Positions 4,234 through 38,420 of a DNA stretch of 64,000 nucleotides are shown piece by piece. The notes under the pieces are model-generated. The model worked only from the letters and a program-made list of their open reading frames with translations. It did no database searches and was not told where the DNA came from. This DNA comes from an uncultured SAR86 cluster bacterium (GTDB lineage Bacteria; Pseudomonadota; Gammaproteobacteria; Magnimaribacterales; D2472). Position 1 is the first letter of the stretch. Every line of letters begins with the position of its first letter. Where the stretch lies: positions 2,746 through 66,745 of the forward strand of contig CABXVU010000004.1 in NCBI GenBank assembly GCA_902515775.1, in the 5' to 3' direction. The position numbers were made by a program, and so were the translations under genes.

Positions 4234-5547
4234 TTAACTAAAACCAATGAGTTGGCTATATAAAATTAGGAATGCCATGGAAACTTGTAAGATCAAAGTG
4301 ATCCATAAAATCATCTTTGTAACTGGTTTGGGCTGCAATTCCATGCTTAATTTACTTGTAAGATATATAGCACCTATATTTATTATTGGAAGACCAACTG
4401 CTGCCCAAATTCCTGCGATCAATAATAGAGTGATTGGATTAGGAAGCAAAAAATAAGCAATGCAAGAAAATAAGGGTACAACTAATGCAATAATTTTAAT
4501 TAAATGCTTGCGGGTATTTTTTTGCTCATCAACAAATCCAATTGAGATTAAATAGTCTGAAATAGTTCTTGTAAATGCTGCAGTCCCTGAGAGTAGAGTA
4601 GAAAAAAGAACAAAGAAGGCGAGAGGAATAAAAAACCATTTGGCCCAGGTTCCTAAGATAGAGGTAAACATATTCAAGAGAGTTTGAATAATATCGCCAT
4701 CTGGTGGAGGATATAAACCCAATGTATTTAAGACAGCTGCACCTAAAAGAAAAAATGGAAGAGTGCCAATGGTTACAAAAAAGACTGTTGCCCAAACATC
4801 TGTTTGCATGACTTTAATCCATGCTTTCAGTTGGTTTAAATCATCGCCATGTTTGGCATAGCCTTTTTCTAGACACCAGTAAGTATATGCCATAATTTCA
4901 CCGTAACTGATTCCAGTGAAACCAAAAACTGCTAAAGCCAGTGCTGCATGTTCAAATGGAAATGTAAACGAAAAGCCGCCTAGAATTTGAGAGCCAGTAA
5001 TTGCATATGGAGTAGATTGCATTGCAATAGCGATCACCAGTGTAACCACTGAAAAAAAGAAAACCATGCCGAGAAGAAGTTTCTCCAGTGTTTGATAAGT
5101 TCCAAGATATAAAATAAACCAGGTAATAAAACATGCTGCTATAACCCATGTTTCTACGCTAAATATCGGTACCATCATGTGCCCAGCTTCTGCAACAGCT
5201 CCTGCAAGACCGCCCATGCCTGCAACAGAGGGCACTACACCTATAAACATAAACCAAACTAGCCAAGAGGCTTGTTTACCTCTGAAATTTGTTTTTGGTC
5301 CAGGCATATCTGAAAAAGCTTCTAAAAAAGTCTTATTTGTAGCAATTACATATCGACTTATTTCAGCTTGAATTAGTGGTTTGCTCCAAAGACTTAATAA
5401 AAGCCACCAAAGTAAGGCAAAGCCAGTTGCAGCACCAAGCAATGGCGATAAAGCAATTGAACCGCTCCCCACAACACTGCCAGTTACAATAATGCTAGGC
5501 CCAATAAATTTTAAACGCTGTATTAAAGTAGATGGTGTTTTATTCAT
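4234..5547 (-). CDS. Nramp-like polytopic membrane transporter
   Basis: 437 aa with about 11 TM helices. The N-terminal GPSIIVTGSVVGSGSI...LLW segment resembles Nramp/MntH-type transporters. Family call is from memory. Confidence 0.5.
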   Translation of the reverse strand: MNKTPSTLIQRLKFIGPSIIVTGSVVGSGSIALSPLLGAATGFALLWWLLLSLWSKPLIQAEISRYVIATNKTFLEAFSDMPGPKTNFRGKQASWLVWFMFIGVVPSVAGMGGLAGAVAEAGHMMVPIFSVETWVIAACFITWFILYLGTYQTLEKLLLGMVFFFSVVTLVIAIAMQSTPYAITGSQILGGFSFTFPFEHAALALAVFGFTGISYGEIMAYTYWCLEKGYAKHGDDLNQLKAWIKVMQTDVWATVFFVTIGTLPFFLLGAAVLNTLGLYPPPDGDIIQTLLNMFTSILGTWAKWFFIPLAFFVLFSTLLSGTAAFTRTISDYLISIGFVDEQKNTRKHLIKIIALVVPLFSCIAYFLLPNPITLLLIAGIWAAVGLPIINIGAIYLTSKLSMELQPKPVTKMILWITLILQVSMAFLILYSQLIGFS

Positions 5548-28515: not shown

Positions 28516-29604
28516 TTAATCTTTTAGGCCAAATAACAGATTTATTAAAAAATCATTGCCCCATTCATTAGCAATTGAAAAATCGCACTTTGAATAATCA
28601 AGGTCTGATTGAGGTGGTGAGTAACAAAACCCTACATTTCTATCTATACCGGGCCAAAAATGTCCTGCATCTTTATTTAAAAGGCTAATGACTTGAACAT
28701 CATTCTTGCAACCTGAAGCTACATTCTTTTCAAAATCATCATATAAATTAAAATCTGATTGTTTGGAGGTCTTGCATTCAAATTGTTTTGACCAAGCATT
28801 AAATGTATCTTCCATTGGCTCATAAAAATAGCCATCTGACGCTCTGATATTAATTGGGGGAACGACCGTGTCTTTAACGCTTCCATAGATAATAAAATTC
28901 ACTGGCTCTTTAGGAATGCAACTAAGGTCTTTTTGTTGCATGCCTACAATATTTACAACACCTCTAAAAATGCTTGGATATTTACAAGCCAGTGCTTGAG
29001 CCATCATGCCACCATTGCTCATGCCTAATAAATATATATCTCTAATCTTATGGTCTTCCTTTGCGCGATCAATTATTTTTTTTATAAAGCCAAGATCATC
29101 ACTACAGCTTGCCCAAGCACAACGCCCTCCTCCACTACAATTAGGATACTGGGGATAAATATCTGCATCTATAGCACATATTTCACCATTTGGTGTTTGA
29201 GTCTTTGAGCCTGCCAGATCATTCCAAGAGGAAACAAATGAGCTAGGGTCATCCTCAACACTATTAAAGTAAAGCCCTTGTGGATAAATTGCTAAAAATT
29301 TATATTTGTCTGCTGCATCATTAAATCCACCAGTGGTTTGCTTTTCAAATCCGGTAGCTGTTCCTGTGTAGCCGTGGATGCCAATAAATAAATCAACTTC
29401 ATTTTTAAGATCTAGGTCTGCTGGAATATATTTTAAGTAAGTTCTATTAATTGATTCATGATTTATCGCATGCTCCGTCATTGACTCTGATAGCACCGAT
29501 AAAGACAAGAAAAGCATAGCTAAGACGTTGATTTTTTTGCTAATTAAATACACTTTTTTAAATCTACTCTTCGGCAAAGGAGTATCAACAAGAAAACTTC
29601 TCAT
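28516..29604 (-). CDS. Secreted alpha/beta-hydrolase esterase (PHB-depolymerase / LpqC-like family)
   Basis: 362 aa with a signal-like hydrophobic segment, the nucleophile elbow GMSNG and several Cys pairs. Confidence 0.6.
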   Translation of the reverse strand: MRSFLVDTPLPKSRFKKVYLISKKINVLAMLFLSLSVLSESMTEHAINHESINRTYLKYIPADLDLKNEVDLFIGIHGYTGTATGFEKQTTGGFNDAADKYKFLAIYPQGLYFNSVEDDPSSFVSSWNDLAGSKTQTPNGEICAIDADIYPQYPNCSGGGRCAWASCSDDLGFIKKIIDRAKEDHKIRDIYLLGMSNGGMMAQALACKYPSIFRGVVNIVGMQQKDLSCIPKEPVNFIIYGSVKDTVVPPINIRASDGYFYEPMEDTFNAWSKQFECKTSKQSDFNLYDDFEKNVASGCKNDVQVISLLNKDAGHFWPGIDRNVGFCYSPPQSDLDYSKCDFSIANEWGNDFLINLLFGLKD

Positions 29605-29619
29605 TTTTTATAATTTCCA

Positions 29620-29880
29620 TTAAAAGTTATTTGCTTTGAACAATATATATCCTGAAATGAACTCGCCTAAGAAAGTAATCACTGTTATAAGCAGCCCAAC
29701 AATTAAATAGAGTTTATACGATTTGGATTGTGCTTTATGCTCATTCCATCCAATTAATAAATACAGAAGGCCCAAAATGTACAAGGATAATGGAGAGAAA
29801 TAATTGTCTAAGTACAGTAACAAGATGGATAATGCGAGTCCAATAACTGCGGTAATATGAAGAAACTTAAGCATAATCAA
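29620..29880 (-). CDS. Small membrane protein
   Basis: 86 aa with three hydrophobic helices. Confidence 0.4.
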   Translation of the reverse strand: MIMLKFLHITAVIGLALSILLLYLDNYFSPLSLYILGLLYLLIGWNEHKAQSKSYKLYLIVGLLITVITFLGEFISGYILFKANNF

Positions 29881-29906
29881 TACTATACTTTAGTATCAAG
29901 CTTGTT

Positions 29907-30593
29907 TCATCGCCTTGATAGAATAACGATCCAACGACCAAGGTTTAAAATGTCGGCTAGCGCAGCCGAAACATAGGTAAGGGCCGCTGCCCTCAGAATG
30001 CTGCTAACTGCTCTTTCGTTTGACTGCGATACGTAATTCCCCTCCCTTAATATAGGAAGAGCCTTGGAAAAACTTGCATCAAATTCAATTGGCAGAGTCA
30101 CCGCATGAACCATCATGCGAGCGATAAATCCGGATAGCCCAACGATAAGCAATAAAGAAAATGGCATTGGATGCCGTGTAATAATACCGATCACTGGCGA
30201 TAAAGAGATAATTAAAGCACTCCAACGGGCCACCTTATCAATAACGGGTACCATCTTTGTTCTAGTAGCCAGACGTTTATCACCTTGCTGATCCTGAATG
30301 GCATGTCCAACCTCATGTGCGGCAATTGCAATTGCTGTTAACGATTTGGATTCATAGTGCTCTCGCAAAAGCCTAACTTTTTTTTCAATTGGATCATAAT
30401 GATCTCCCAGCTCAGTTACTTCGACCGTCACATCTTTTAAAGAAAATCGCTCAATCAAATGCTTTGCAAGTTCTCCCCCAGTGCCTGGCATTTCAGGCTT
30501 TACAGTTGAATACCTCTTCATAACCAACTTCACCCATAAAGATGGCCCAAATATTAGTGCTAGAACTATGAGCGCGCCGGCTGCTAAAACCAT
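29907..30593 (-). CDS. Membrane zinc metallopeptidase (YugP / Zn_peptidase_2-like)
   Basis: 228 aa with HEVGHAIQ, flanking TM helices and an AGGAG RBS. Confidence 0.75.
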   Translation of the reverse strand: MVLAAGALIVLALIFGPSLWVKLVMKRYSTVKPEMPGTGGELAKHLIERFSLKDVTVEVTELGDHYDPIEKKVRLLREHYESKSLTAIAIAAHEVGHAIQDQQGDKRLATRTKMVPVIDKVARWSALIISLSPVIGIITRHPMPFSLLLIVGLSGFIARMMVHAVTLPIEFDASFSKALPILREGNYVSQSNERAVSSILRAAALTYVSAALADILNLGRWIVILSRR

Positions 30594-30678
30594 GTTTGAT
30601 ACTCCTAAAATTTATTCTGCAAACGAAACAAATTTGCAACTATAAAGTTTATATAGTGATTTAATTTTATTTTAAAAG

Positions 30679-31476
30679 TTATCCATGTTTTTTTACTAAG
30701 TTTATCGCCCACTTTATTACATTTGGATTTTTCTCAGTATCAAAAATGAATTCTTGCCCAAACCCTTTATAGAAGATTCTAGATTCCTTCTCATTCTCCC
30801 ACTGCATTCTATTTAAAAATAATCCTTCTGTATTTGAAAAATATTCTGAGGGCAGCTTCCATCTAGATCGTGTTTTGTTTGCTTCGGTCAGAATTAAATC
30901 ATCATGTGTCTTTTTAAATAAACCGTGGCCCCTGTCAAAAACCTTTTTTTCATTTATCTCTAAAGTTTTTTTTCCTACATAGATAGTATTATTTGAAAAT
31001 TTAGAGGTGTCTCCAAATCCATGAGGATGAGCAATGTTCTTTTCTTTGAGATATGTGATAATTGCCTCTGATCCTTCTATGATTTCTTTTATTTGTAACC
31101 ATCCAAACAGATGATGTAAATCTCTTCCTTTAATTGAAAAGTTCTTAAACCATCCAAAGAATAAAAATAAGTCTCCTGGACCTACACTATTATTTTTTAA
31201 TTCGGTTTGAGAGGAACTTGCTTGACCGAAAATACCGATATCTTCATTTAGAAGTGGGTCATTGTGACAATAATCTGAAGGTTTGATCTTAGATGACACC
31301 TCTTTTAATAATTCTATGCCAGATGTTCCACAAAAGTTTAAATCTTCGTACTTTTTTGGAGAGGGATGATCTTGAGGAATCGGTATAGAAAAAATTCTTC
31401 CATCACTGAATATAGGTGAGGCGCTCCCCCCTGCTTTAGCATCAAATCCTTTTCTGCTTAGAATTATTCTTTTCAA
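30679..31476 (-). CDS. Conserved-looking hypothetical protein (no confident family)
   Basis: 265 aa with a TTG start. Soluble. Distinctive blocks: ILSRKGFDAKAGGSASPIF, GDLFLFFGWF, HHLFGWLQIKE. Confidence 0.5.
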   Translation of the reverse strand: MKRIILSRKGFDAKAGGSASPIFSDGRIFSIPIPQDHPSPKKYEDLNFCGTSGIELLKEVSSKIKPSDYCHNDPLLNEDIGIFGQASSSQTELKNNSVGPGDLFLFFGWFKNFSIKGRDLHHLFGWLQIKEIIEGSEAIITYLKEKNIAHPHGFGDTSKFSNNTIYVGKKTLEINEKKVFDRGHGLFKKTHDDLILTEANKTRSRWKLPSEYFSNTEGLFLNRMQWENEKESRIFYKGFGQEFIFDTEKNPNVIKWAINLVKKHG

Positions 31477-31507
31477 CTTATGAAATTAAAAAAACATGCC
31501 TATAAAT

Positions 31508-31525
31508 CAATTCCACCGTAACGGA
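31508..31525 (-). repeat. glmS 3'-end relic D (encodes SVTVE-L; stop lost)
   Basis: Plus strand caattccaccgtaacgga. The reverse complement reads tcc gtt acg gtg gaa ttg. It is followed at 31532-31542 by ttgaaatcact, the same 11-mer that sits beside the live glmS end at 35221-35231. Confidence 0.55.
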
Positions 31526-31559
31526 TTAAATTTGAAATCACTTTCATTGTCTTAATATA

Positions 31560-31850
31560 TTAAGTTATAAGCTTCGGTATTATTCCTAGTTGAGCCAGAA
31601 TACCAAAGATAATTAGCAATATAATGCTAGTGAGCGTTTTAAGGTTCTTCTGTTTAATAAATTCAAATAAGTCGTCTTCTATAAATTTTCTTATACAATC
31701 ATCAGCTTTACCCATCAACTTAACAGCTTTTCTTGTCCATTTGTCAGTCACATCAATTATTAACAAAGAAAATCCTGCAATGATAAGCCACACAAAACCA
31801 TTAAGAGTCATGTCGATTAGCCAACCTATAATCACCCAATTTATTTCCAT
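31560..31850 (-). CDS. Small membrane protein (module 1)
   Basis: 96 aa with N- and C-terminal TM helices. It is the only ORF between relics D and E. Confidence 0.45.
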   Translation of the reverse strand: MEINWVIIGWLIDMTLNGFVWLIIAGFSLLIIDVTDKWTRKAVKLMGKADDCIRKFIEDDLFEFIKQKNLKTLTSIILLIIFGILAQLGIIPKLIT

Positions 31851-31881
31851 TATTAAGCCCTAAAAAGCTAATTTTATTTTT

Positions 31882-31899
31882 CTACTCCGCGGTCATAGA
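31882..31899 (-). repeat. glmS 3'-end relic E (encodes SMTAE-stop)
   Basis: Plus strand ctactccgcggtcataga. The reverse complement reads tct atg acc gcg gag tag. The next codons (..S L I Y) share the taaact (S-L) block with relic A. Confidence 0.55.
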
Positions 31900-32018
31900 G
31901 TAGATTAAACTAACTACCTTTATTAAACCTCATGACTATTATACTTACAGTACTTTTTTTTAGACTTTTTCCTATCCATTTTTTTAAAAGAAAAGTGTTT
32001 TTCTAGTATCATATCGCC

Positions 32019-33134
32019 ATGAAAATAAATTCATTCACACCGCCAAATAGGATTTTAATGGGTCCCGGTCCATCTGATGTTTGCGACAGAGTTTTGGAGG
32101 CTATGGCTAGACCAACTATTGGTCATCTCGATCCTATTTTTATAACAATGATGGATGAAACAAAACAGTTACTTCAATATGCATTTCAAACACAGAATGA
32201 GTTAACTTTTGCCTTATCAGCTCCTGGTATGGCAGGAATGGAATCTTGCTTTGCAAATCTTGTTGAGCCTGATGATAAGGTAATTATTGCTAAAAATGGG
32301 TTCTTTGGCGAAAGAATGAAAGAGAATGTTGAGCGATTTGGCGGAATACCAATAGTTATTGATGATGAATGGGGAACAAAAGTAGACTTAAATAAAATTG
32401 AATCAGCCTTAAATGAACATAAGGATGCAAAAATTGTTGCTTCAGTTCATGCTGAAACCTCTACCGGGGCTCTTACAGATCCAAAATCAATTACAAAATT
32501 AGCACATGACCACGGATGTTTATCAATTGTAGATACTGTAACTGGTTTGGCTGGAGTTCCTTTAAAAGTAGATGAATGGGGAATTGACGCAATTTATTCT
32601 GGTACACAAAAGTGTTTGTCCGCTTCTCCTGGTTTATCGCCAATTAGTTTTAGTAATGCTGCAAAGGAAAAGATTAAGAATAGAAAATCAAAAGTAAAGA
32701 GTTGGTTTCATGATTTAAACTTAATCATGTCATATTGGGAAGGAGAAGGAGGCCGATCCTATCATCATACTGCACCAATAAATTCATTATATGGACTACA
32801 TGAAGCCTTGATTATGTTAAATGAAGAAGGCCTAGAAAATTCATGGAAAAGACATAAAGAGAACCATCTTCAACTCCGAGAGGGCTTAGAAAAATTAAAT
32901 ATTAAATTTTTAGTAAAAGAAGAGGACAGATTACCTCAATTAAATGCTATCTATATTCCTGATGGTGTAAATGATCTTGAATCAAGACAAAGACTGTTAA
33001 ACGAATTTAATCTCGAAATTGGAGCTGGTCTTGGAGTTCTTGCAGGAAAAGTTTGGCGAATTGGACTTATGGGACAATCTTCCAATAAAAAGAATATTGA
33101 ATATTGTTTAAACTCTCTTGCGGAAGTAATTTAA
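32019..33134 (+). CDS. Class V aminotransferase (alanine-glyoxylate / serine-pyruvate aminotransferase type)
   Basis: 371 aa with the PLP-lysine block SGTQKCLSASPGLSP and an N-terminal MGPGPS pattern. Confidence 0.8.
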   Translation: MKINSFTPPNRILMGPGPSDVCDRVLEAMARPTIGHLDPIFITMMDETKQLLQYAFQTQNELTFALSAPGMAGMESCFANLVEPDDKVIIAKNGFFGERMKENVERFGGIPIVIDDEWGTKVDLNKIESALNEHKDAKIVASVHAETSTGALTDPKSITKLAHDHGCLSIVDTVTGLAGVPLKVDEWGIDAIYSGTQKCLSASPGLSPISFSNAAKEKIKNRKSKVKSWFHDLNLIMSYWEGEGGRSYHHTAPINSLYGLHEALIMLNEEGLENSWKRHKENHLQLREGLEKLNIKFLVKEEDRLPQLNAIYIPDGVNDLESRQRLLNEFNLEIGAGLGVLAGKVWRIGLMGQSSNKKNIEYCLNSLAEVI

Positions 33135-33291
33135 AAATTATTAAATTCGCCATCTTCCAACCACTGTTAAAACCTGCTTTACCTTAACAGAGTATCCATA
33201 ACCAAATTCACATTTTTTATATATTTTTGCAAATAAAATATAACCAATAAGATCGGAATTAACCTTAATTTTTTAATTTATTTTGAATCTT

Positions 33292-33942
33292 CTATTTAAT
33301 CTGATTTCCATTAAAGTCATACTCCTCGATCACCCTAAGTATAGCTCCGTTTTGATATTCTATTTTTGACTTTAGTTGTCCGTTTTGATGGTATGTCACG
33401 GATATACCATGCAATTCCTCATCGTTGTTATATACTTCCTTCGATGCTATTTGACCGTTGTCATAATATGAAAATGATGTAAGAGTAACGGTTACGCCAT
33501 TTTTAACATTTTCTTTCCAGGATACTTGACCATATTCATAGCCAATCCATTCGCCCTCGTCAACACCATCAACTCTATTTCCTTCCATGGATGGAAAGCC
33601 TTCCATAAACTCGATATATTTTCCGTGCTCAAGTCCATTTTTATATCCAGTCTTAAATGAAAATAAGGTCCCACAGCCCTCATATCCCTCAAATGGTCCA
33701 TGAAGAAGCCCCCTTTTATATGACCCTGCCTCTATTGCACAAAATCCATATTCATCCTCATAGGTTACGAATCTTCCAGAAAAAGGAGTATTAGTATTTA
33801 CCTGATATTTCAAGCCCTGTCTTTCAACAAGTGATGACGAATTTATAGATTTATCTGCATATTTGATATACAAGGCTTCATTAGCCTGTAAATTTAGTAT
33901 TAAAAAAGCAAATAAAAACACATTTCTTGAAAGTATCTTCAT
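33292..33942 (-). CDS. Secreted MORN-variant repeat (YwqK-like) protein
   Basis: Repeats of the Y-x-NG-x-x-x-G type (YKNGLEHGKY, YHQNGQLKS, YQNG). I prefer the second ATG (MKILSRNVFLFAFLILNLQA) because a GGGGAA SD lies inside the first five codons of the 221-aa track ORF. Confidence 0.6.
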   Translation of the reverse strand: MKILSRNVFLFAFLILNLQANEALYIKYADKSINSSSLVERQGLKYQVNTNTPFSGRFVTYEDEYGFCAIEAGSYKRGLLHGPFEGYEGCGTLFSFKTGYKNGLEHGKYIEFMEGFPSMEGNRVDGVDEGEWIGYEYGQVSWKENVKNGVTVTLTSFSYYDNGQIASKEVYNNDEELHGISVTYHQNGQLKSKIEYQNGAILRVIEEYDFNGNQIK

Positions 33943-33999
33943 ATTTTCCCCACACAACTTAATAGTACTTTTATTTATTCTAACGCTATCTGTTAGATA

Positions 34000-34026
34000 T
34001 TTAAAATTACTCCGCCGTGACTGATT
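34000..34026 (-). repeat. glmS 3'-end relic A (27 nt, 26/27 identical to the live glmS end; encodes SVTAE-stop)
   Basis: tttaaaattactccGccgtgactgatt here versus tttaaaattactccAccgtgactgatt at 35233-35259. Confidence 0.85.
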
Positions 34027-34048
34027 GAAATAAACTCAACCTGTTTTT

Positions 34049-34318
34049 TTATAATTCAAAGGTCTCGTCTAGAATAAACATCTCAACACCGCCTGTTATT
34101 TTGTCCTCTGACATTGCCTCTGCAGTTGATGGATCATTAAATATTCTTACAAACTTATCAACATCATTTGTTTCAAAAACAGCAATTACTGTTTTATCAT
34201 TTGCTGTCCCCATATGTGCAAGAGAGACGCCCTGACTTTTAAATAAATCATCGTGAGTCTTAAACTTTTCTCTCCAGTGATCAACGCTCTCAACTTCTGC
34301 TCTTACTGCTATTAACAT
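34049..34318 (-). CDS. Small soluble hypothetical protein (ferredoxin-like alpha+beta pattern)
   Basis: 89 aa with an AAGGAG RBS upstream. I recognised no family. Confidence 0.5.
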   Translation of the reverse strand: MLIAVRAEVESVDHWREKFKTHDDLFKSQGVSLAHMGTANDKTVIAVFETNDVDKFVRIFNDPSTAEAMSEDKITGGVEMFILDETFEL

Positions 34319-34349
34319 TTAGTATCTCCTTAATAAATCATTGTTAATT

Positions 34350-34542
34350 ACTTTTTTATTCATAAACCTCTCCTAAGCAAAATAAAATTAATAATGCGGT
34401 TTAGAAAGGTTAATAATGCCACAAACCACCATTTGAATTGACCTCCATCTTCAAGAATAGATGTTAAGACAACTCCTAGAAAAACAGAATGAATAAACCA
34501 TCTTTTTTTTAAATATTTTACATTCTGTAAAAAGGACGTATT
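34350..34542 (-). pseudogene. Start-less 63-codon open frame encoding a two-TM-like peptide (possible gene remnant or non-canonical start)
   Basis: My own translation: NTSFLQNVKYLKKRWFIHSVFLGVVLTSILEDGGQFKWWFVALLTFLNRIINFILLRRGL-stop. There is no in-frame ATG/GTG/TTG; the only near-cognate codon is ATT at 34494. Confidence 0.25.
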
Positions 34543-34614
34543 TTAGAATTCTCAGTACTTATATAATAAATTCAAAACTTCTCACTATAATTTTATCAAC
34601 CAATAAATCTTTCT

Positions 34615-34632
34615 CTATTCAACTGTGACTGA
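34615..34632 (-). repeat. glmS 3'-end relic C (encodes SVTVE-stop with different codons)
   Basis: Plus strand ctattcaactgtgactga. The reverse complement reads tca gtc aca gtt gaa tag. Confidence 0.6.
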
Positions 34633-34636
34633 GTGT

Positions 34637-34652
34637 TTTTAAACAGTGATTT
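34637..34652. repeat. Left arm of the perfect 16-bp inverted repeat bracketing the ZnR-SWIM module
   Basis: ttttaaacagtgattt is the exact reverse complement of aaatcactgtttaaaa at 35224-35239. Confidence 0.9.
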
Positions 34653-34665
34653 GATTTTTTGCAAT

Positions 34666-35010
34666 TCATTTTTTCATTACAGATTTAAATTTTTGAAGAA
34701 CTATTTTCTTTTTGGCAGCAATTTCTTTTTTTATTTCTGCCTCTTGTTTTTTAATTTCTTCTAACTCAATCCACGCTTCTTCTAAATCACTTCCTGGTAA
34801 CCAAGATTTAATTTCATTAATTTGCGAATCATCTAGACCTATATACTTTTGTTTTTTCCCCTCAAAAACACTCATCCAGTGTTTGCAATGAGTTCCCATC
34901 GATCCTGCAGGACAATCACAAATGCATTTCAAATTTGTGCCACTCAAACTTATTGTTATGTTGTATGGTTGTGCTGCACTTCCTTGAACCTGATAACTAA
35001 TTTCTTTCAT
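34666..35010 (-). CDS. SWIM zinc-finger protein with C-terminal coiled coil
   Basis: 114 aa with the SWIM signature CxCx(n)CxH (CICDCPAGSMGTHCKH) after a beta-rich N-terminus, then a K/E-rich helix. Spaced 2 nt from the upstream ORF. Confidence 0.65.
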   Translation of the reverse strand: MKEISYQVQGSAAQPYNITISLSGTNLKCICDCPAGSMGTHCKHWMSVFEGKKQKYIGLDDSQINEIKSWLPGSDLEEAWIELEEIKKQEAEIKKEIAAKKKIVLQKFKSVMKK

Positions 35011-35012
35011 CT

Positions 35013-35219
35013 TTAAACATCTCTAGAGCAGAATCTACAAACTGTCGCATCTTTTTTTATATGCTCTTTGCAAAACTGGCACACTTTGTAACCACTTGGA
35101 CTTGCTAGTTGTTGGAAAAATACAACAACAAGGTGAAGCATTATTGATAAAAGTACTGCTGAACCCCATACGGAAATCATATATAAATGAAGTACTAAAA
35201 AAATGCCATGTATTATCAT
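35013..35219 (-). CDS. Small two-TM protein with C-terminal zinc ribbon
   Basis: 68 aa with two hydrophobic helices followed by CQFCKEHIKKDATVCRFC. Confidence 0.5.
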   Translation of the reverse strand: MIIHGIFLVLHLYMISVWGSAVLLSIMLHLVVVFFQQLASPSGYKVCQFCKEHIKKDATVCRFCSRDV

Positions 35220-35223
35220 CTTG

Positions 35224-35239
35224 AAATCACTGTTTAAAA
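35224..35239. repeat. Right arm of the 16-bp inverted repeat (abuts the glmS stop codon)
   Basis: aaatcactgtttaaaa, immediately next to the glmS TAA (35240-35242). Confidence 0.9.
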
Positions 35240-35259
35240 TTACTCCACCGTGACTGATT
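35233..35259 (-). repeat. Live glmS 3' end (copy B of the 27-nt repeat)
   Basis: tttaaaattactccaccgtgactgatt: the last 17 coding nt of glmS (K-SVTVE), the stop, and 7 nt downstream. Confidence 0.9.
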
Positions 35260-37066
35260 TAGCTAAGTTCCTTGGTTGATCTAAATCAGTGCCTCTTTGG
35301 CATGCAACTTGATATGCAAGAATTTGAAGTGGAATGGTATAAATAATTGGGGCTAACAATTCGCTACATTCTGGCATTTGAATGTATTCACCTCTTTCGA
35401 TTTTAATTTTTGAATTTTCTCCACCAAATACATATAGCGTGCCGCCCCTTGCCTTTACCTCCTCTAAGTTGGAGACTAGTTTTTCAGTTAAAGTGTTTTC
35501 AGGGGATAATGCCACCACTGGAATTTGATCATCGACCAATGCCAATGGCCCGTGTTTCAGCTCTCCTGCTGGGTAAGCCTCAGCGTGAATGTATGAAATT
35601 TCTTTCAGTTTCAGTGCGCCTTCTTGAACAATTGGAAAAAACATTCCCCTTCCTAGGAATAAAGCATTGTGTTTATCAGCTATATTAGGAACGATCCTCA
35701 TGATCTCATTTGATAATTTCAATGTCTTATCGATTATCTCTGGCAAATTTCTTAATTCGTTTACAAGTTTTTTTCTTAATTTTTTATCTTTATTTAAGCT
35801 TTTTGCAATAGACATGGCTAACAACATTAAACCTGCCAGCTGAGTAGTAAATGCCTTTGTTGATGCAACGCCAATTTCTGGGCCTGCATTAGTAAAAAGA
35901 ACATGCTCTGATTCTCTAGCCAACGAGCTGGTTGGAACGTTACAGATTGACAATGTGCTTAAATAGTTTTTCTCTTTTGCGTATTTGAGGGCAGCCAAAG
36001 TATCTGCGGTTTCTCCGGATTGTGAAATGGTAACAAACAATGTGCCTTCTTCTACAAGAGGCTCTCTATATCTATACTCACTTGCAAAATCTACATAACA
36101 TGGAATTTTAGCTATTCGCTCAAACCAAAACCTTCCTACTTTGCCTGCATGTAAGCTTGTTCCACATGCAACAAACTGAATTCTTTTAATCTTACTAAAA
36201 AGCTCTGATGAGCCTAAACCAAATATATTATCTAATACGTCCTCATCTCCAAGTTTCCCATTTATGGTATTGGCAACAGCATCAGGCTGTTCATATATTT
36301 CTTTCTCCATAAAGTGAGAATATTTTCCTTTAGTAACTGTATTAACTGCTATGTCTATTTCAGTTACATCTCTTTTTACAGGGGAACTCTTTCCGTCGAA
36401 CACTTGATAACTTTGCTTAGTTATTTCTGCAACATCGCCATCTTCAAGAAATACAAACTCATTGGTAAGTTGTGATAAAGCTAAGGGGTCCGAAGCAGCA
36501 AAATTTTCCTCTAAGCCTAACCCAATCAATAATGGGCTTTTGTTTCTTGCAACAACTAATCTGTTTTTATTTTTAATATGAATGGCCGCTATGGCGTAAG
36601 CGCCATCAAGTTCTTTTATAGCGTCATGCATGGCCGACAGCAAATCGCCGCTTGATTGTATGTGTTGATGAAGTAAGTGTGCTATGACCTCTGAGTCAGT
36701 TTCAGATTGAAAAGCATATCCGACCTTTTTTAATTTTTCTATAAGCTCAAGGTAGTTTTCTATAATTCCATTGTGAACAATGTGAACCTCTCCACTTGAT
36801 GCGTGTGGGTGTGCATTTTCTTTAGAAGGTTGACCGTGAGTTGCCCAACGAGTGTGAGCAATTCCAAGTTTGCTTTTTGGCCGATGCTCAATCATCCCAT
36901 CTTCGAGCAAACTTACTTTTCCCAAAGTTCTTAAATTAAAAATACTGTCTTTTTGATGGAGAGCTATACCTGCTGAGTCATAACCACGATACTCCATTTT
37001 ATGAAGGCCTTGAACTAATAACTTTCCTACGTTGCGAGATGATGCCGCCCCTATAATTCCACACAT
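35240..37066 (-). CDS. glmS: Glutamine--fructose-6-phosphate aminotransferase
   Basis: 608 aa with the N-terminal MCGIIGA nucleophile, SIS domains and the C-terminal KSVTVE. Confidence 0.97.
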   Translation of the reverse strand: MCGIIGAASSRNVGKLLVQGLHKMEYRGYDSAGIALHQKDSIFNLRTLGKVSLLEDGMIEHRPKSKLGIAHTRWATHGQPSKENAHPHASSGEVHIVHNGIIENYLELIEKLKKVGYAFQSETDSEVIAHLLHQHIQSSGDLLSAMHDAIKELDGAYAIAAIHIKNKNRLVVARNKSPLLIGLGLEENFAASDPLALSQLTNEFVFLEDGDVAEITKQSYQVFDGKSSPVKRDVTEIDIAVNTVTKGKYSHFMEKEIYEQPDAVANTINGKLGDEDVLDNIFGLGSSELFSKIKRIQFVACGTSLHAGKVGRFWFERIAKIPCYVDFASEYRYREPLVEEGTLFVTISQSGETADTLAALKYAKEKNYLSTLSICNVPTSSLARESEHVLFTNAGPEIGVASTKAFTTQLAGLMLLAMSIAKSLNKDKKLRKKLVNELRNLPEIIDKTLKLSNEIMRIVPNIADKHNALFLGRGMFFPIVQEGALKLKEISYIHAEAYPAGELKHGPLALVDDQIPVVALSPENTLTEKLVSNLEEVKARGGTLYVFGGENSKIKIERGEYIQMPECSELLAPIIYTIPLQILAYQVACQRGTDLDQPRNLAKSVTVE

Positions 37067-37067
37067 A

Positions 37068-38420
37068 TTATTTTTTGTTCTTTGCCCAGTCTTCTTTGAT
37101 AACTTGTTTACCTCGACCTACAGCCAATGCATTGTCAGGTACATCTTTTGTAATTACAGAGCCGGCTCCTACATAAGCGCCCTTACCAATATTAACTGGT
37201 GCAACCAAGGAAGAGTTTGTGCCAATGAAACTATCTTCACCAATAGAAGTGTTATGCTTATTTGTTCCATCGTAATTGCATGTAATTGTTCCAGCGCCAA
37301 CATTTGTTTTATTACCAATGTTTGCATCGCCTAAGTAGGCTAAATGATTGGCTTTGGCGCCATCTCCAAGTTTAGTTTTTTTAGTCTCAACAAAATTACC
37401 AATTTTGGCATTATTACCTATCTCTGACCCCTCCCTAATGCGGGCATATGGACCAATGTTGCAATTCGAACCAACTGAAGCTGATGAAAGATGACTAAAT
37501 GATTCTATGATCGAGTTATCTCCAATGAAAACATCTTGTAAAACGACATTTGATTTAATAGTAACGTTATTGCCAAAGGTAACATCGCCTTCCAAAATAA
37601 CATTGACATCAATAGAACAATCTTTTCCAGCGACGACTTTGCCACGAACGTCAACACGAGTTTTATCAATAAGTGTTATTCCTTGTTCTAATAATTTTTT
37701 AGCGCTCATTTTTCTTAAAATTAATTCTAGCTCATGTAATTCATGCTTATTGTTTGCCCCCAACACTTCTGCATGATTTGCTTGAATACATTTTATTTTA
37801 ACTCCTTTTCCAGAAAGTATCTCCACCAAGTCTGTAAGATAATATTCATTAGCTGAATTTTGGTTCTTAATTTCTTCTAAAGCAGGTCTAAGCAAACTTC
37901 CATCAATTAATAAAATACCTGTAAAAACCTCTTCAATTTTAAGTTCGTCTTCTGATGCATCTTTTTGTTCAATAATTTTTAAAGCTAATTTTTGCCCATT
38001 TGTAATCACCCTGCCGTAGCCGGTTGGATCATTTAATTGCATAGTTAGGAGCGTGCACTCGTATCCAGAGTTTATAAGTCCCTCTATAGTTTTGGAGCTA
38101 ATCAATGGAACATCACCATATAGAATTAATATTTTTTCATCATCCTTAATCAAATGCGAAGCCATTTTGACTGCATGTGCTGTTCCTAGCTGATTATCTT
38201 GATCTGCTGTTTTTATATTATGGTCGATTTTTGCTATATGAGTTTTTAAGATATTTTTTTGATGGCCAACAATAACAGTTATATTTTCACTGCTTTCTTT
38301 TGCAGTTTGAATAACATGCGAAATTAAAGTTTGCCCCCCAAGGGGTTGCATAACCTTTGGCAAATTGGTGTTCATTCGAGTGCCCTTACCAGCTGCTAGG
38401 ATAATAGTATGAATATTCAA
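37068..38420 (-). CDS. glmU: Bifunctional UDP-N-acetylglucosamine pyrophosphorylase / GlcN-1-P acetyltransferase
   Basis: 450 aa with LAAGKGTRM and C-terminal hexapeptide repeats. Spaced 1 nt from glmS. Confidence 0.95.
   Translation of the reverse strand: MNIHTIILAAGKGTRMNTNLPKVMQPLGGQTLISHVIQTAKESSENITVIVGHQKNILKTHIAKIDHNIKTADQDNQLGTAHAVKMASHLIKDDEKILILYGDVPLISSKTIEGLINSGYECTLLTMQLNDPTGYGRVITNGQKLALKIIEQKDASEDELKIEEVFTGILLIDGSLLRPALEEIKNQNSANEYYLTDLVEILSGKGVKIKCIQANHAEVLGANNKHELHELELILRKMSAKKLLEQGITLIDKTRVDVRGKVVAGKDCSIDVNVILEGDVTFGNNVTIKSNVVLQDVFIGDNSIIESFSHLSSASVGSNCNIGPYARIREGSEIGNNAKIGNFVETKKTKLGDGAKANHLAYLGDANIGNKTNVGAGTITCNYDGTNKHNTSIGEDSFIGTNSSLVAPVNIGKGAYVGAGSVITKDVPDNALAVGRGKQVIKEDWAKNKK

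What the first reader, a model, noticed from the sequence alone, without database searches (positions are those of the whole stretch)
34000..35259. 27-nt direct repeat (26/27) of the glmS terminus flanks a 1.2-kb segment
tttaaaattactccGccgtgactgatt (34000-34026) and tttaaaattactccAccgtgactgatt (35233-35259) differ at one base. The repeat covers 17 coding nt of glmS, the stop codon and 7 nt beyond. The flanking sequence outside the repeat is unrelated. This is attL/attR-like and is the youngest-looking duplication in the ladder. It encloses three small ORFs and one start-less frame, all on the glmS strand.
Basis: seen in the sequence. Interest (0 to 1): 0.65.

Follow-up and report, generated by a model that had tools for sequence, protein, structure and literature searches.

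The report
Mobile gene-cassette array at glmS stop codon
The repeat is real and marks recombination-site copies that separate small, horizontally exchanged gene cassettes stacked behind the essential gene glmS of the marine bacterium SAR86, a layout resembling an integron but linked to serine recombinases, which I could not find described.

Summary
The 27-nt repeat (34000-34026 / 35233-35259, 26/27) is real and not chance. It is not a simple attL/attR pair. A third intact copy lies at 34615-34635, a degenerate one at 34356-34373, and two more at 31882-31902 and 31508-31528.

The window is from SAR86. In 80 SAR86 species genomes the 21-nt glmS terminus NAN-TCN-GTN-ACN-GTN-GAR-TAR recurs 200 times downstream of glmS, always in the glmS sense. 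It bounds 191 cassettes (83-2378 nt, 140 sequence types).

Each cassette starts and ends with inverted arms. Joined as a circle, they form a ~56-bp palindrome centred on the invariant AC of the core, which is also where exchange maps.

Window cassette 1 is 98.8% identical to a copy in a genome whose glmS is only 70% identical.

Two large-serine-recombinase families encode 6-9-kb elements inserted at the same site, each lineage with its own arm sequence. Cassette 1 has the arm type of the second family.

Best reading: recombinase-less mini-elements moved in trans by rare serine-recombinase elements. This is SCCmec-like in logic and integron-like in scale. No recombinase lies in the window, and activity is inferred.

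The parts
35240..37066 (-). glmS (glutamine-fructose-6-phosphate aminotransferase), 608 aa, ends KSVTVE*. Its last codons form the chromosomal attachment site.
   Evidence: ORF list. It is 96-98% identical at protein level to SAR86 single-cell genomes. glmU, atpC and atpD lie upstream.
35240..35260 (-). Core 0: AAATCAGTCACGGTGGAGTAA, the glmS terminus (attL-like). The left part belongs to glmS; from the AC dinucleotide rightwards it travels with cassette 1.
   Evidence: Crossover mapping.
35224..35239 (-). Start arm of cassette 1 (TTTTAAACAGTGATTT on the glmS strand).
   Evidence: It is the inverted repeat of 34636-34652 (pair I8, 22 nt, 91%). The arm type matches that next to the LSR2 gene in L158.
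34636..35239 (-). Cassette 1 (625-nt unit, cluster c25). It holds ORFs 35013-35219 (68 aa, membrane segment plus CxxC...CxxC) and 34666-35010 (114 aa).
   Evidence: It is 98.8% identical over 604 nt to L037, whose glmS CDS is 70% identical. It is absent from L001 and L011. Pfam gives no hit; there are weak PHROG hits of unknown function.
34636..34652 (-). End arm of cassette 1 (AAATCACTGTTTAAAAA on the glmS strand).
   Evidence: The reconstructed circle junction folds as a long hairpin, i.e. is a palindrome.
34615..34635 (-).
   Evidence: 14/14 specified consensus positions.
34374..34614 (-). Gene-poor unit starting AGAAAGATTTATTGGTTG. It holds the 'start-less frame'.
   Evidence: 87.9% identical to metagenome locus L168. 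The same start motif follows cores in many arrays.
34356..34373 (-). Degenerate core (GGAGAGGTTTATGAATAA): the right half is kept, the left half is lost.
   Evidence: L011 has an intact core at the homologous place, upstream of the 89-aa ORF.
34028..34355 (-). 89-aa ORF cassette (ORF 34049-34318).
   Evidence: 97% identical to L011, where it is a separate 343-nt cassette. No Pfam or PHROG hit.
34007..34027 (-). Core 2: CAATCAGTCACGGCGGAGTAA.
   Evidence: The same right half plus 'ttttaaatat' precedes the MORN cassette in L001.
31903..34006 (-). Cassette 3 (2125 nt, cluster c8). It holds a MORN-repeat protein (33292-33957, minus strand) and a class-V aminotransferase (32019-33134, plus strand).
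   Evidence: Pfam. The same cassette occurs in L001; its aminotransferase part occurs in L008, L011 and L006.
31882..31902 (-). Core 3: TACTCTATGACCGCGGAGTAG (12/14), the distal end of the variable array.
31529..31881 (-). Conserved 96-aa gene (31560-31850), found at the distal end of the array in nearly all SAR86 genomes. It is either the ancestral neighbour of glmS or an old, fixed cassette.
   Evidence: 76-88% identical copies occur in more than 35 loci, usually directly after the last core.
31508..31528 (-). Core 4: TAATCCGTTACGGTGGAATTG (13/14, stop codon lost), an old degenerate copy.
   Evidence: It is also present in L001 and L007.

Best explanation
The two 27-mers are copies of a recombination site that sits on the last codons of glmS. 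In SAR86 this site anchors an array of small mobile cassettes. In its circular form, each cassette would carry a ~56-bp site. That site has a 10-nt asymmetric centre (NGTN-AC-NGTN) flanked by inverted half-sites: a conserved inner TAnTC/GAnTA and a variable outer arm. Recombination with the glmS terminus at the central AC dinucleotide inserts the cassette. The right half of the cassette's site supplies new ...T-V-E-stop codons to glmS. The left half stays at the distal end of the cassette. Repetition builds a ladder of cores. The enzymes are most likely large serine recombinases (LSRs). They are encoded by rare 6-9-kb self-replicating elements that use the same site. The outer arms match the LSR lineage. 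The cassettes, including the window's, encode no recombinase and would be moved in trans, as ccr-less SCC cassettes are. Most cassette genes point the same way as glmS, so read-through expression is plausible. Shown: the site anatomy, the array across the clade, the exchange point, horizontal transfer, and the physical link between LSR genes, the site and arm type. Inferred: catalysis by the LSRs, trans-mobilisation, circular intermediates and expression.
For: Site census: the 14-position consensus occurs 176 times in the glmS sense against once antisense. There are 200 copies downstream against 11 weak ones upstream in 80 SAR86 loci plus the window. Position -2 (A) is invariant in all 154 unique cassette junctions although it was not part of the search pattern.

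Cassettes: 191 cassettes form 140 sequence clusters, median 697 nt. The same clusters occur at different ranks and with different neighbours.

Arms: complementarity between the start and end of the same cassette averages 9.0, against 5.7 for shuffled partners and 5.7 around the same core. Reconstructed circle junctions fold at -18.5 kcal/mol, against -12.7 for shuffled partners and -12.2 in situ (p ~1e-19). Dyad symmetry peaks only at the centre between A6 and C7 (0.61 against ~0.27) and runs from 6 to ~28 nt out.

Exchange point: variable positions up to +5 of an internal core follow the left cassette and those from +8 do not. On the other boundary, positions up to +5 do not follow the right cassette, +14 and +17 do, and +8 and +11 only partly.

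Mobility: window cassette 1 is 98.8% identical to L037 while glmS is 70% identical (46% at third codon positions). 34 of 113 same-cluster pairs are at least 95% identical while the adjacent glmS is below 80%. Relatives at 93-96% identity differ exactly between cores.

Recombinase link, family 1: L050, L081 and L085 have glmS, then Rep, then further genes, then the LSR, then a core. L089 has tandem copies with a perfect palindromic junction.

Recombinase link, family 2: L158 and L201 carry the LSR2 gene followed directly by an arm and a core. L221 and L222 show the whole layout: glmS, then the element ending in a resolvase and LSR2, then a core.

Arm specificity: five arm types correspond to five LSR lineages. 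Both ends match wherever both are known. Small cassettes carry the same types (E/E 37, A/A 7, C/C 1; 10 discordant). The L050 LSR has Resolvase, Recombinase and Zn-ribbon domains and matches SPbeta SprA, TP901-1 and phiC31 integrases.

Orientation: the longest ORF is on the glmS strand in 103 clusters and opposite in 20.
Against: No recombinase gene lies in the window. Both LSR families give no tblastn hit. ORFs of at least 130 aa downstream of glmS, from 337 to 33957, give no recombinase or transposase Pfam hit.

Only 1 of 80 species loci carries an LSR within 10 kb of glmS. Any mobilisation would therefore have to be rare or rely on transient helpers.

Canonical LSRs recombine attP with attB only. 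Growth of an array needs insertion into a site whose right half is already element-derived (attL-like). That requires relaxed site choice, as reported for Ccr, or entry of multi-cassette circles. Neither is shown.

72 of 191 cassettes have arms matching no sampled LSR lineage, and about half lack clearly symmetric arms.

The 5' boundary mapping is noisier than the 3' one.

No circular cassette or empty-site read was observed directly. The viral-contig scans found nothing.
Confidence: 0.7

Rival explanations
1. The cores are scars only. Full-length LSR elements inserted one after another at glmS and then lost most of their interior by deletion. On this view the small cassettes are dead remnants that never move by themselves.
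For: Some ~1-kb cassettes share both ends with LSR elements (arm type A). Decay is visible in the window: a degenerate core at 34356-34373, and a deletion in L011 that starts inside a core.
Against: Identical small units with identical boundaries occur in very distant hosts: c25 at 98.8%, c3 at 99.6% and c13 at 99.7%, against glmS at 68-71%. The same units occur at different ranks and with different neighbours. Independent identical deletions are unlikely. Most cassettes carry intact ORFs on the glmS strand.
Confidence: 0.12
2. An integron-like system. The palindromic cassette sites act as folded single-stranded hairpins (like attC) and are recombined by a tyrosine recombinase (IntI- or Xer-like) encoded elsewhere in the genome.
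For: Cassette size, number and one-way gene orientation resemble integron arrays. Arms vary in sequence but stay complementary, as expected for a structure-based site.
Against: Arm sequence tracks the lineage of the adjacent LSR, which explains 'variable but symmetric' without folding. The exchange point is at the dyad centre inside the conserved core, not at an R' box at the site edge. No RYYYAAC/GTTRRRY boxes are visible by inspection. No integrase lies next to the array: the window has none downstream, and the atp operon and glmU lie upstream. Tyrosine recombinases were not searched for in the 80 loci.
Confidence: 0.06
3. Cassette circles are produced by rolling-circle replication. The Rep protein of the helper element would nick one core and terminate at the next, as CTX-phi genomes are made from tandem prophages. 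The LSR would serve only for integration.
For: Family-1 LSR elements carry a Rep of family PF23343 (G2P-like) near the glmS-proximal end. This would yield exactly the core-to-core units seen.
Against: The LSR2 elements whose arm type matches window cassette 1 show no PF23343 (Rep) family among their called genes in L221 and L222, and the three ORFs of L158 scanned directly gave no Rep hit. No nick-site motif was identified. The symmetric arms are better explained as recombinase half-sites.
Confidence: 0.08
4. Chance similarity, or an assembly or duplication artefact of the glmS end.
For: None beyond the low complexity of an AT-rich genome.
Against: 0 of 100 shuffles reach two matches. The same junctions occur in independent single-cell genomes and metagenomes. 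Strand and position bias is 176:1 and 200:11.
Confidence: 0.01

Closest known systems
Staphylococcal cassette chromosome elements (SCCmec, SCC composite islands, ccr-less pseudo-SCC) moved by the large serine recombinases CcrAB/CcrC
   Same: Both insert into the 3' end of a conserved housekeeping gene and restore it. Both have a copy of the integration-site sequence at every junction, inverted repeats at element ends, and tandem arrays of several units. In both, recombinase-less units flanked by att sites can be excised by the LSR of a neighbour (PMC11470126, plus established knowledge of SCC).
   Different: The target is glmS, not rlmH, and the hosts are marine Gammaproteobacteria. The LSRs match SPbeta, TP901-1 and phiC31 integrases only distantly and no Ccr was among the PDB hits. 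Units are 0.08-2.4 kb (median 0.7 kb), against 3-60 kb for SCC. Several LSR lineages with distinct arm sequences share one target. Helper elements carry Rep and DNA-polymerase-like genes.
Integrons (sedentary chromosomal integrons, CALINs)
   Same: Both have arrays of many short, mostly single-gene cassettes in one orientation behind a fixed point. Each cassette has its own imperfectly palindromic site, and cassettes are shuffled and exchanged between genomes.
   Different: There is no IntI tyrosine recombinase and no attC consensus boxes. The exchange point is in the centre of the site, so half of it stays at each end of a cassette. The conserved part is the centre and the variable part is the arms, the reverse of attC. 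The associated enzymes are serine recombinases.
Tycheposons of Prochlorococcus
   Same: Both are site-specific integrative elements with a replication module in a streamlined, abundant marine bacterium. Both show tandem accumulation and leave att-repeat remnants in a variable island (10.1101/2020.12.28.424599).
   Different: Tycheposons mostly use tyrosine recombinases (910 of 937). They are kilobases long and carry their own integrase. Here the target is a protein-coding stop region and most units are recombinase-less mini-cassettes.
CIME/ICE accretion at the fda 3' end in Streptococcus thermophilus (cis-mobilisable elements)
   Same: Both have non-autonomous elements bounded by att sites, stacked beside an integrase-bearing element at the 3' end of a gene (established knowledge, not re-read here).
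   Different: That system uses a tyrosine integrase and has few, large units.
Tn7 and Tn7-like transposons at attTn7
   Same: Both use the conserved glmS terminus as the landmark.
   Different: Tn7 inserts about 25 bp downstream with a 5-bp duplication and carries tnsABCD. Here the coding end itself is duplicated and no Tns genes are present. In Pseudidiomarina (L218) an LSR element sits next to a Tn7-like end, so the two systems can share the locus.

Membership tests
Large-serine-recombinase (LSR) integrative elements | The element encodes an LSR (Resolvase catalytic domain, Recombinase domain and zinc-ribbon/coiled-coil region). | tested here: not met
   The window and its cassettes encode none. 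The feature is met only in related loci using the same site: L050, L081, L085, L089, L093, L094, L158, L201, L221 and L222. The window's cassettes are therefore at best non-autonomous members.
Large-serine-recombinase (LSR) integrative elements | The att site has imperfect dyad symmetry (~40-50 bp) around a central, non-palindromic crossover dinucleotide. | tested here: met
   A single sharp symmetry peak lies between A6 and C7 (0.61 against 0.27). Arms run from 6 to ~28 nt each side. AC is 99-100% conserved.
Large-serine-recombinase (LSR) integrative elements | Conservative exchange occurs at the central dinucleotide, with no target-site duplication beyond the shared core. | tested here: inconclusive
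   Linkage of variable positions places the exchange between +5 and +8, consistent with AC at +6/+7. The 5' side is noisy, and a 6-8-bp tyrosine-type overlap cannot be excluded.
Large-serine-recombinase (LSR) integrative elements | Recombination of the sites is catalysed by the LSR. | not testable with these tools
   Only co-location (the LSR gene is always the last gene before a core) and lineage-specific arms support it.
SCC-type cassette chromosome arrays | Insertion into the 3' end of a conserved housekeeping gene, with integration-site repeats at each junction and terminal inverted repeats. | tested here: met
SCC-type cassette chromosome arrays | Ccr-family recombinases and the rlmH (orfX) target. 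| tested here: not met
   The target is glmS. The best solved relatives are SPbeta, TP901-1 and phiC31 integrases at E 1e-12 or weaker, and no Ccr was listed. This is an analogue, not a member.
Integron | An intI tyrosine recombinase gene with adjacent attI and promoter. | tested here: not met
   Upstream are glmS, glmU and the atp operon. ORFs of at least 130 aa downstream of glmS (337-33957) give no recombinase Pfam hit. The 80 loci were not screened for tyrosine recombinases.
Integron | attC sites with R''/L''-L'/R' boxes (RYYYAAC...GTTRRRY) and crossover at G|TT of R'. | tested here: not met
   No such boxes appear in the aligned sites, by inspection. The exchange point is at the site centre. 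No attC model was run.
Integron | An array of short, mostly promoterless cassettes in one orientation. | tested here: met
   Median 697 nt; 103 against 20 clusters on the glmS strand. The promoter scan is not above chance (21 found against 18.5 expected) and the terminator scan is not enriched (1 against 1.9).
Tn7-like insertion at attTn7 | tnsABC(D) genes, Tn7 ends, and a 5-bp duplication downstream of glmS. | tested here: not met
   No Tns Pfam hits in the window. The duplicated sequence includes the glmS coding end.

The most novel reading that the evidence does not exclude
SAR86, and probably other marine Proteobacteria, run a serine-recombinase counterpart of the integron. Promoterless mini-cassettes of 0.1-2.4 kb are captured at the glmS stop codon and expressed by read-through. 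They are traded across deep lineages. Each carries an attP-like palindrome whose outer arms specify which LSR lineage can move it, and the enzymes are supplied in trans by rare 6-9-kb replicons.
Probability: 0.45. Interest if true: 0.85.

Novelty: new variant of a known kind. Interest (0 to 1): 0.74.

Why it matters
SAR86 is among the most abundant heterotrophs of the surface ocean. It has a small, streamlined genome, and I found no described route for gene gain in it.

A dedicated capture site behind an essential gene, holding 0-9 tiny cassettes per genome with 140 types in 81 genomes, would be such a route. Near-identical cassettes occur in hosts whose glmS differs by 30%.

The system would extend cassette-chromosome logic (LSR, 3' end of a housekeeping gene, recombinase-less passengers) from staphylococci to marine Gammaproteobacteria, at integron scale.

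It also offers a natural set of LSRs that share one conserved target but differ in arm recognition. That is a useful series for studying, or engineering, how serine integrases read their sites.

In practice, the 21-nt core is a simple marker for locating and cataloguing this flexible gene pool in metagenomes.

Tried and rejected
- **Viral contigs.** Scans with the L050 LSR and with the arm-plus-core pattern found nothing, so there is no evidence that the helpers are recognised viruses.
- **Rfam.** A search on 29000-37500 gave no family.
- **Promoter and terminator scan.** On 31400-35400 the counts are at chance level and not informative.
- **Circular contigs.** No contig among the loci from L081 onwards has terminal overlaps, and L158 is not demonstrably circular.
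- **Hairpin in the chromosome (RNA or DNA).** Rejected. In-situ sites fold no better than shuffled partners; only the reconstructed circle junction does.
- **Target-site duplication by a transposon with inverted ends.** Rejected. The two cores flanking a cassette differ, and each half follows a different neighbour.
- **Weak core-like hit at 4893-4913.** It lies inside the Nramp-family ORF (4234-5544) with 12/14 positions and no stop codon. I treated it as chance.
- **Pfam, PHROGs on the three small proteins of the 1.2-kb segment.** No function was assigned. The CxC...CxH pattern in the 114-aa protein resembles a SWIM zinc finger by eye only.
- **Literature.** Nine full-text searches found no description of a glmS-linked array or glmS-targeting LSR in SAR86. 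The library covers open-access papers and bioRxiv only.
Full report
**1. The observation**

A search with the 21-nt core at up to three mismatches finds only these two places, and none of 100 shuffles gives two.

glmS is the minus-strand ORF 35240..37066, ending KSVTVE*. glmU, atpC and atpD lie upstream. The repeat covers 17 coding bases, the stop and 7 further bases, as stated. The three small ORFs on the glmS strand are there: 68, 114 and 89 aa.

The 1.2-kb segment is not a single unit. A further intact copy of the glmS end lies at 34615-34635 (encoding HSVTVE*). A degenerate copy lies at 34356-34373. Two more lie further out at 31882-31902 and 31508-31528.

**2. The organism and the wider pattern**

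The glmS protein is 96-98% identical to SAR86 single-cell genomes. One scan returned 80 SAR86-type species genomes with 10 kb on each side.

In nearly all of them, copies of the glmS terminus recur downstream of glmS. The consensus is NAN-TCN-GTN-ACN-GTN-GAR-TAR.
- Perfect matches to the 14 specified positions number 176 in the glmS sense and 1 in the antisense.
- At a looser threshold there are 200 copies downstream and 11 weak ones upstream.
- The A at position -2 was not in the search pattern, yet it is invariant in all 154 unique cassette junctions.

Genomes carry 0 to 9 copies. These bound 191 units of 83-2378 nt (median 697), which fall into 140 sequence clusters. The same cluster appears at different ranks and next to different neighbours in different genomes. 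The longest ORF is on the glmS strand in 103 clusters and on the other strand in 20.

**3. Anatomy of a unit**

After each core, and a few bases on, comes an arm. Just before the next core comes the reverse complement of that arm. Arms differ between units, for example AACAGTGATTT, GGTTGTACC and GAGTGCAGAATT, but match within a unit.
- Mean complementarity score is 9.0 for the two ends of one unit. It is 5.7 for shuffled partners and 5.7 for the two arms around one core.
- Joining the end of a unit to its start gives a sequence that folds at -18.5 kcal/mol on average. Shuffled partners give -12.7 and the site as it stands in the chromosome gives -12.2.
- Symmetry has one sharp centre, between A6 and C7 of the core (0.61 complementary against about 0.27 elsewhere). 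It runs from 6 to about 28 nt on each side.

The circular form of a unit would therefore carry a ~56-bp site. It has conserved inner half-sites TAnTC/GAnTA, variable outer arms, and a 10-nt asymmetric centre NGTN-AC-NGTN.

In the window, 35224-35239 and 34636-34652 are the arms of the first unit (pair I8).

**4. Where exchange happens**

I compared copies of the same unit that have different neighbours.
- At the distal core of a unit, variable positions -3 to +5 follow the unit (0.77-0.98 agreement) and positions +8 onward do not (0.26-0.49).
- At the proximal core, positions up to +5 do not follow the unit (0.21-0.34). Positions +14 and +17 do (0.83-0.87). Positions +8 and +11 are intermediate.

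The exchange point therefore lies between +5 and +8, at or next to the AC at the dyad centre. It follows that glmS keeps its own codons up to ...S-V. It receives T-V-E-stop from the incoming unit. This explains why the right half of every core must keep those codons.

**5. Mobility**

Window unit 1 (604 nt between cores) is 98.8% identical to the first unit of L037. The glmS CDS of L037 is 70% identical to the window's, and 46% at third codon positions.

Across the data set, 34 of 113 same-cluster pairs are at least 95% identical while the adjacent 900 nt of glmS is below 80%.

Close relatives show turnover.
- L001 is colinear with the window at 93-94% on both sides.
- L011 (96% identical) lacks unit 1 and the following ~290 nt, has a different unit in that place, and also lacks about 870 nt of the MORN-gene region.

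**6. The recombinase link**

L050 has a 6047-nt unit directly after glmS. It carries a Rep-like gene (PF23343) near the start. A 551-aa protein with Resolvase, Recombinase and zinc-ribbon domains ends 25 nt before the next core. Its ends form a 20-bp perfect palindrome around the core. The protein matches the serine integrases of SPbeta, TP901-1 and phiC31.

Homologues at 45-72% identity sit in the same layout: glmS, Rep, further genes, LSR, core, then further units. This is seen in L081 and L085. L089 has tandem copies with a perfect palindromic junction.

Homologues at 35-37% identity in other bacteria are also followed by a glmS-type core.

A metagenome scan for the window's arm type plus core returned 120 loci. 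Two of them (L158, L201) carry a second LSR family (28% identical to the first) directly upstream of that arm and core. L221 and L222 show the complete layout for this family. It is glmS, then a 7-11-kb element ending in a small resolvase and the LSR, then a core, with matching arms at both ends.

Five LSR lineages have five different arm sequences. Small units carry the same arm types: E/E 37, A/A 7, C/C 1, against 10 discordant pairs. This explains arms that are variable yet symmetric. They are most simply half-sites read by a dimer of a lineage-specific enzyme, rather than a hairpin.

**7. What is not shown**

The window has no recombinase. tblastn with both LSR families gives no hit. Pfam on ORFs of at least 130 aa downstream of glmS, from 337 to 33957, gives no recombinase or transposase. 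Only one of the 80 species loci has an LSR near glmS.

No circle, empty site or activity was observed.

Canonical serine integrases join attP to attB only. Stacking units requires insertion into a site whose right half already comes from an element. This needs relaxed site choice or entry of multi-unit circles. Ccr enzymes do excise tandem and recombinase-less cassettes (PMC11470126), which is a precedent but not evidence here.

72 of 191 units have arms that match no sampled lineage.

**8. Comparison and novelty**

In logic this is closest to SCC elements. The shared features are a large serine recombinase, the 3' end of a housekeeping gene, site copies at every junction, terminal inverted repeats, tandem units and recombinase-less passengers. 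It is not a member: the target gene, host and enzymes differ, and the units are about tenfold smaller.

In scale and layout it resembles an integron, but it fails the defining tests (no IntI, no attC boxes, central exchange point).

Tycheposons are the nearest marine parallel, but they carry mostly tyrosine recombinases.

Nine full-text searches found no description of this array. The library is limited to open-access papers and preprints.

**9. Verdict**

The att-site reading is right in kind but too simple.

The finding opens onto a clade-wide, horizontally active cassette array tied to serine recombinases. I rate it a new variant of a known kind. I put confidence at 0.7 for the stated mechanism, and much higher for the claim that these are recombination-site copies bounding mobile cassettes.

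Noticed in passing
window 30679-31476: A gene of the Nmad3 family (nucleotide-modification-associated domain 3, E 6e-54) sits just beyond the last core. It is missing in the close relative L011 through a deletion that begins inside that core and ends in the gene's last codons. This deletion is therefore not site-specific.
   Followed up: partly
window 31560-31850: A 96-aa membrane-like ORF with no Pfam hit is conserved (76-88% DNA identity) at the distal end of the glmS array in most SAR86 genomes. In several genomes it is itself followed by a degenerate core. It may be an ancient cassette that became fixed.
   Followed up: partly
L015 15014-16118 (cluster c2) and L035 13594-13959 (cluster c6): Some cassette ORFs run in frame into the distal core and end ...GYSVTVE* or ...VETVE*. 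They use the glmS-type stop codon as their own.
   Followed up: no
L016 +279/+303, L027 +1804/+1828, L069 0/+24 (relative to the glmS core): A second core starts 24 nt after another core and overlaps an AACAGTGA-type arm. This may be an 'empty' unit or a by-product of recombination. The arm AACAGTGA also resembles the left half of the core (ATCAGTGAC).
   Followed up: no
L089 1-16130; L093 1197-3087: The LSR helper elements carry DNA-polymerase-like proteins (phrog_11768; PF03175 family-B polymerase in L093) as well as a G2P-like Rep. L089 holds at least two tandem copies with a period of about 7.1 kb. What kind of replicon these are is open.
   Followed up: partly
L218 10001-13600 (Pseudidiomarina taiwanensis): An LSR of this family is followed by a degenerate glmS-type core and then the end of a Tn7-like transposon (TnsA, TnsB, repeated TnsB-site-like motifs). 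The two glmS-targeting systems appear to be stacked at one locus.
   Followed up: no
L222 269 and 11753: In an IS-rich genome, glmS ends AAAAGCGTGACGGTGGAGTAG (Ser as AGC), while the element-side left half keeps TCA (CAGTCAGTCAC). This fits the left half of the site travelling with the element rather than being copied from the host.
   Followed up: no
window 34374-34614, and after cores in L008, L016, L024, L028, L043, L060, L085, L086, L089, L093: A recurrent start motif AGAAAGATTTCyyGGTTGG follows many cores. In L024 it directly follows glmS, with no further core detected. It could be the original sequence downstream of glmS, or a very common gene-poor cassette.
   Followed up: partly
window 4893-4913: A weak core-like match (GAATCAGTTACGGTGAAATTA, 12/14, no stop) lies inside the Nramp-family transporter ORF, 30 kb from glmS. 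It is most likely chance.
   Followed up: partly
L223 3623, L224 2641 (MAG labelled Alphaproteobacteria): An LSR2 homologue (46% identity) with an upstream small resolvase is followed by AAGTCAACCACTGTGGAGTAG, a variant core. The contigs start inside the element, so the target gene is unknown.
   Followed up: no
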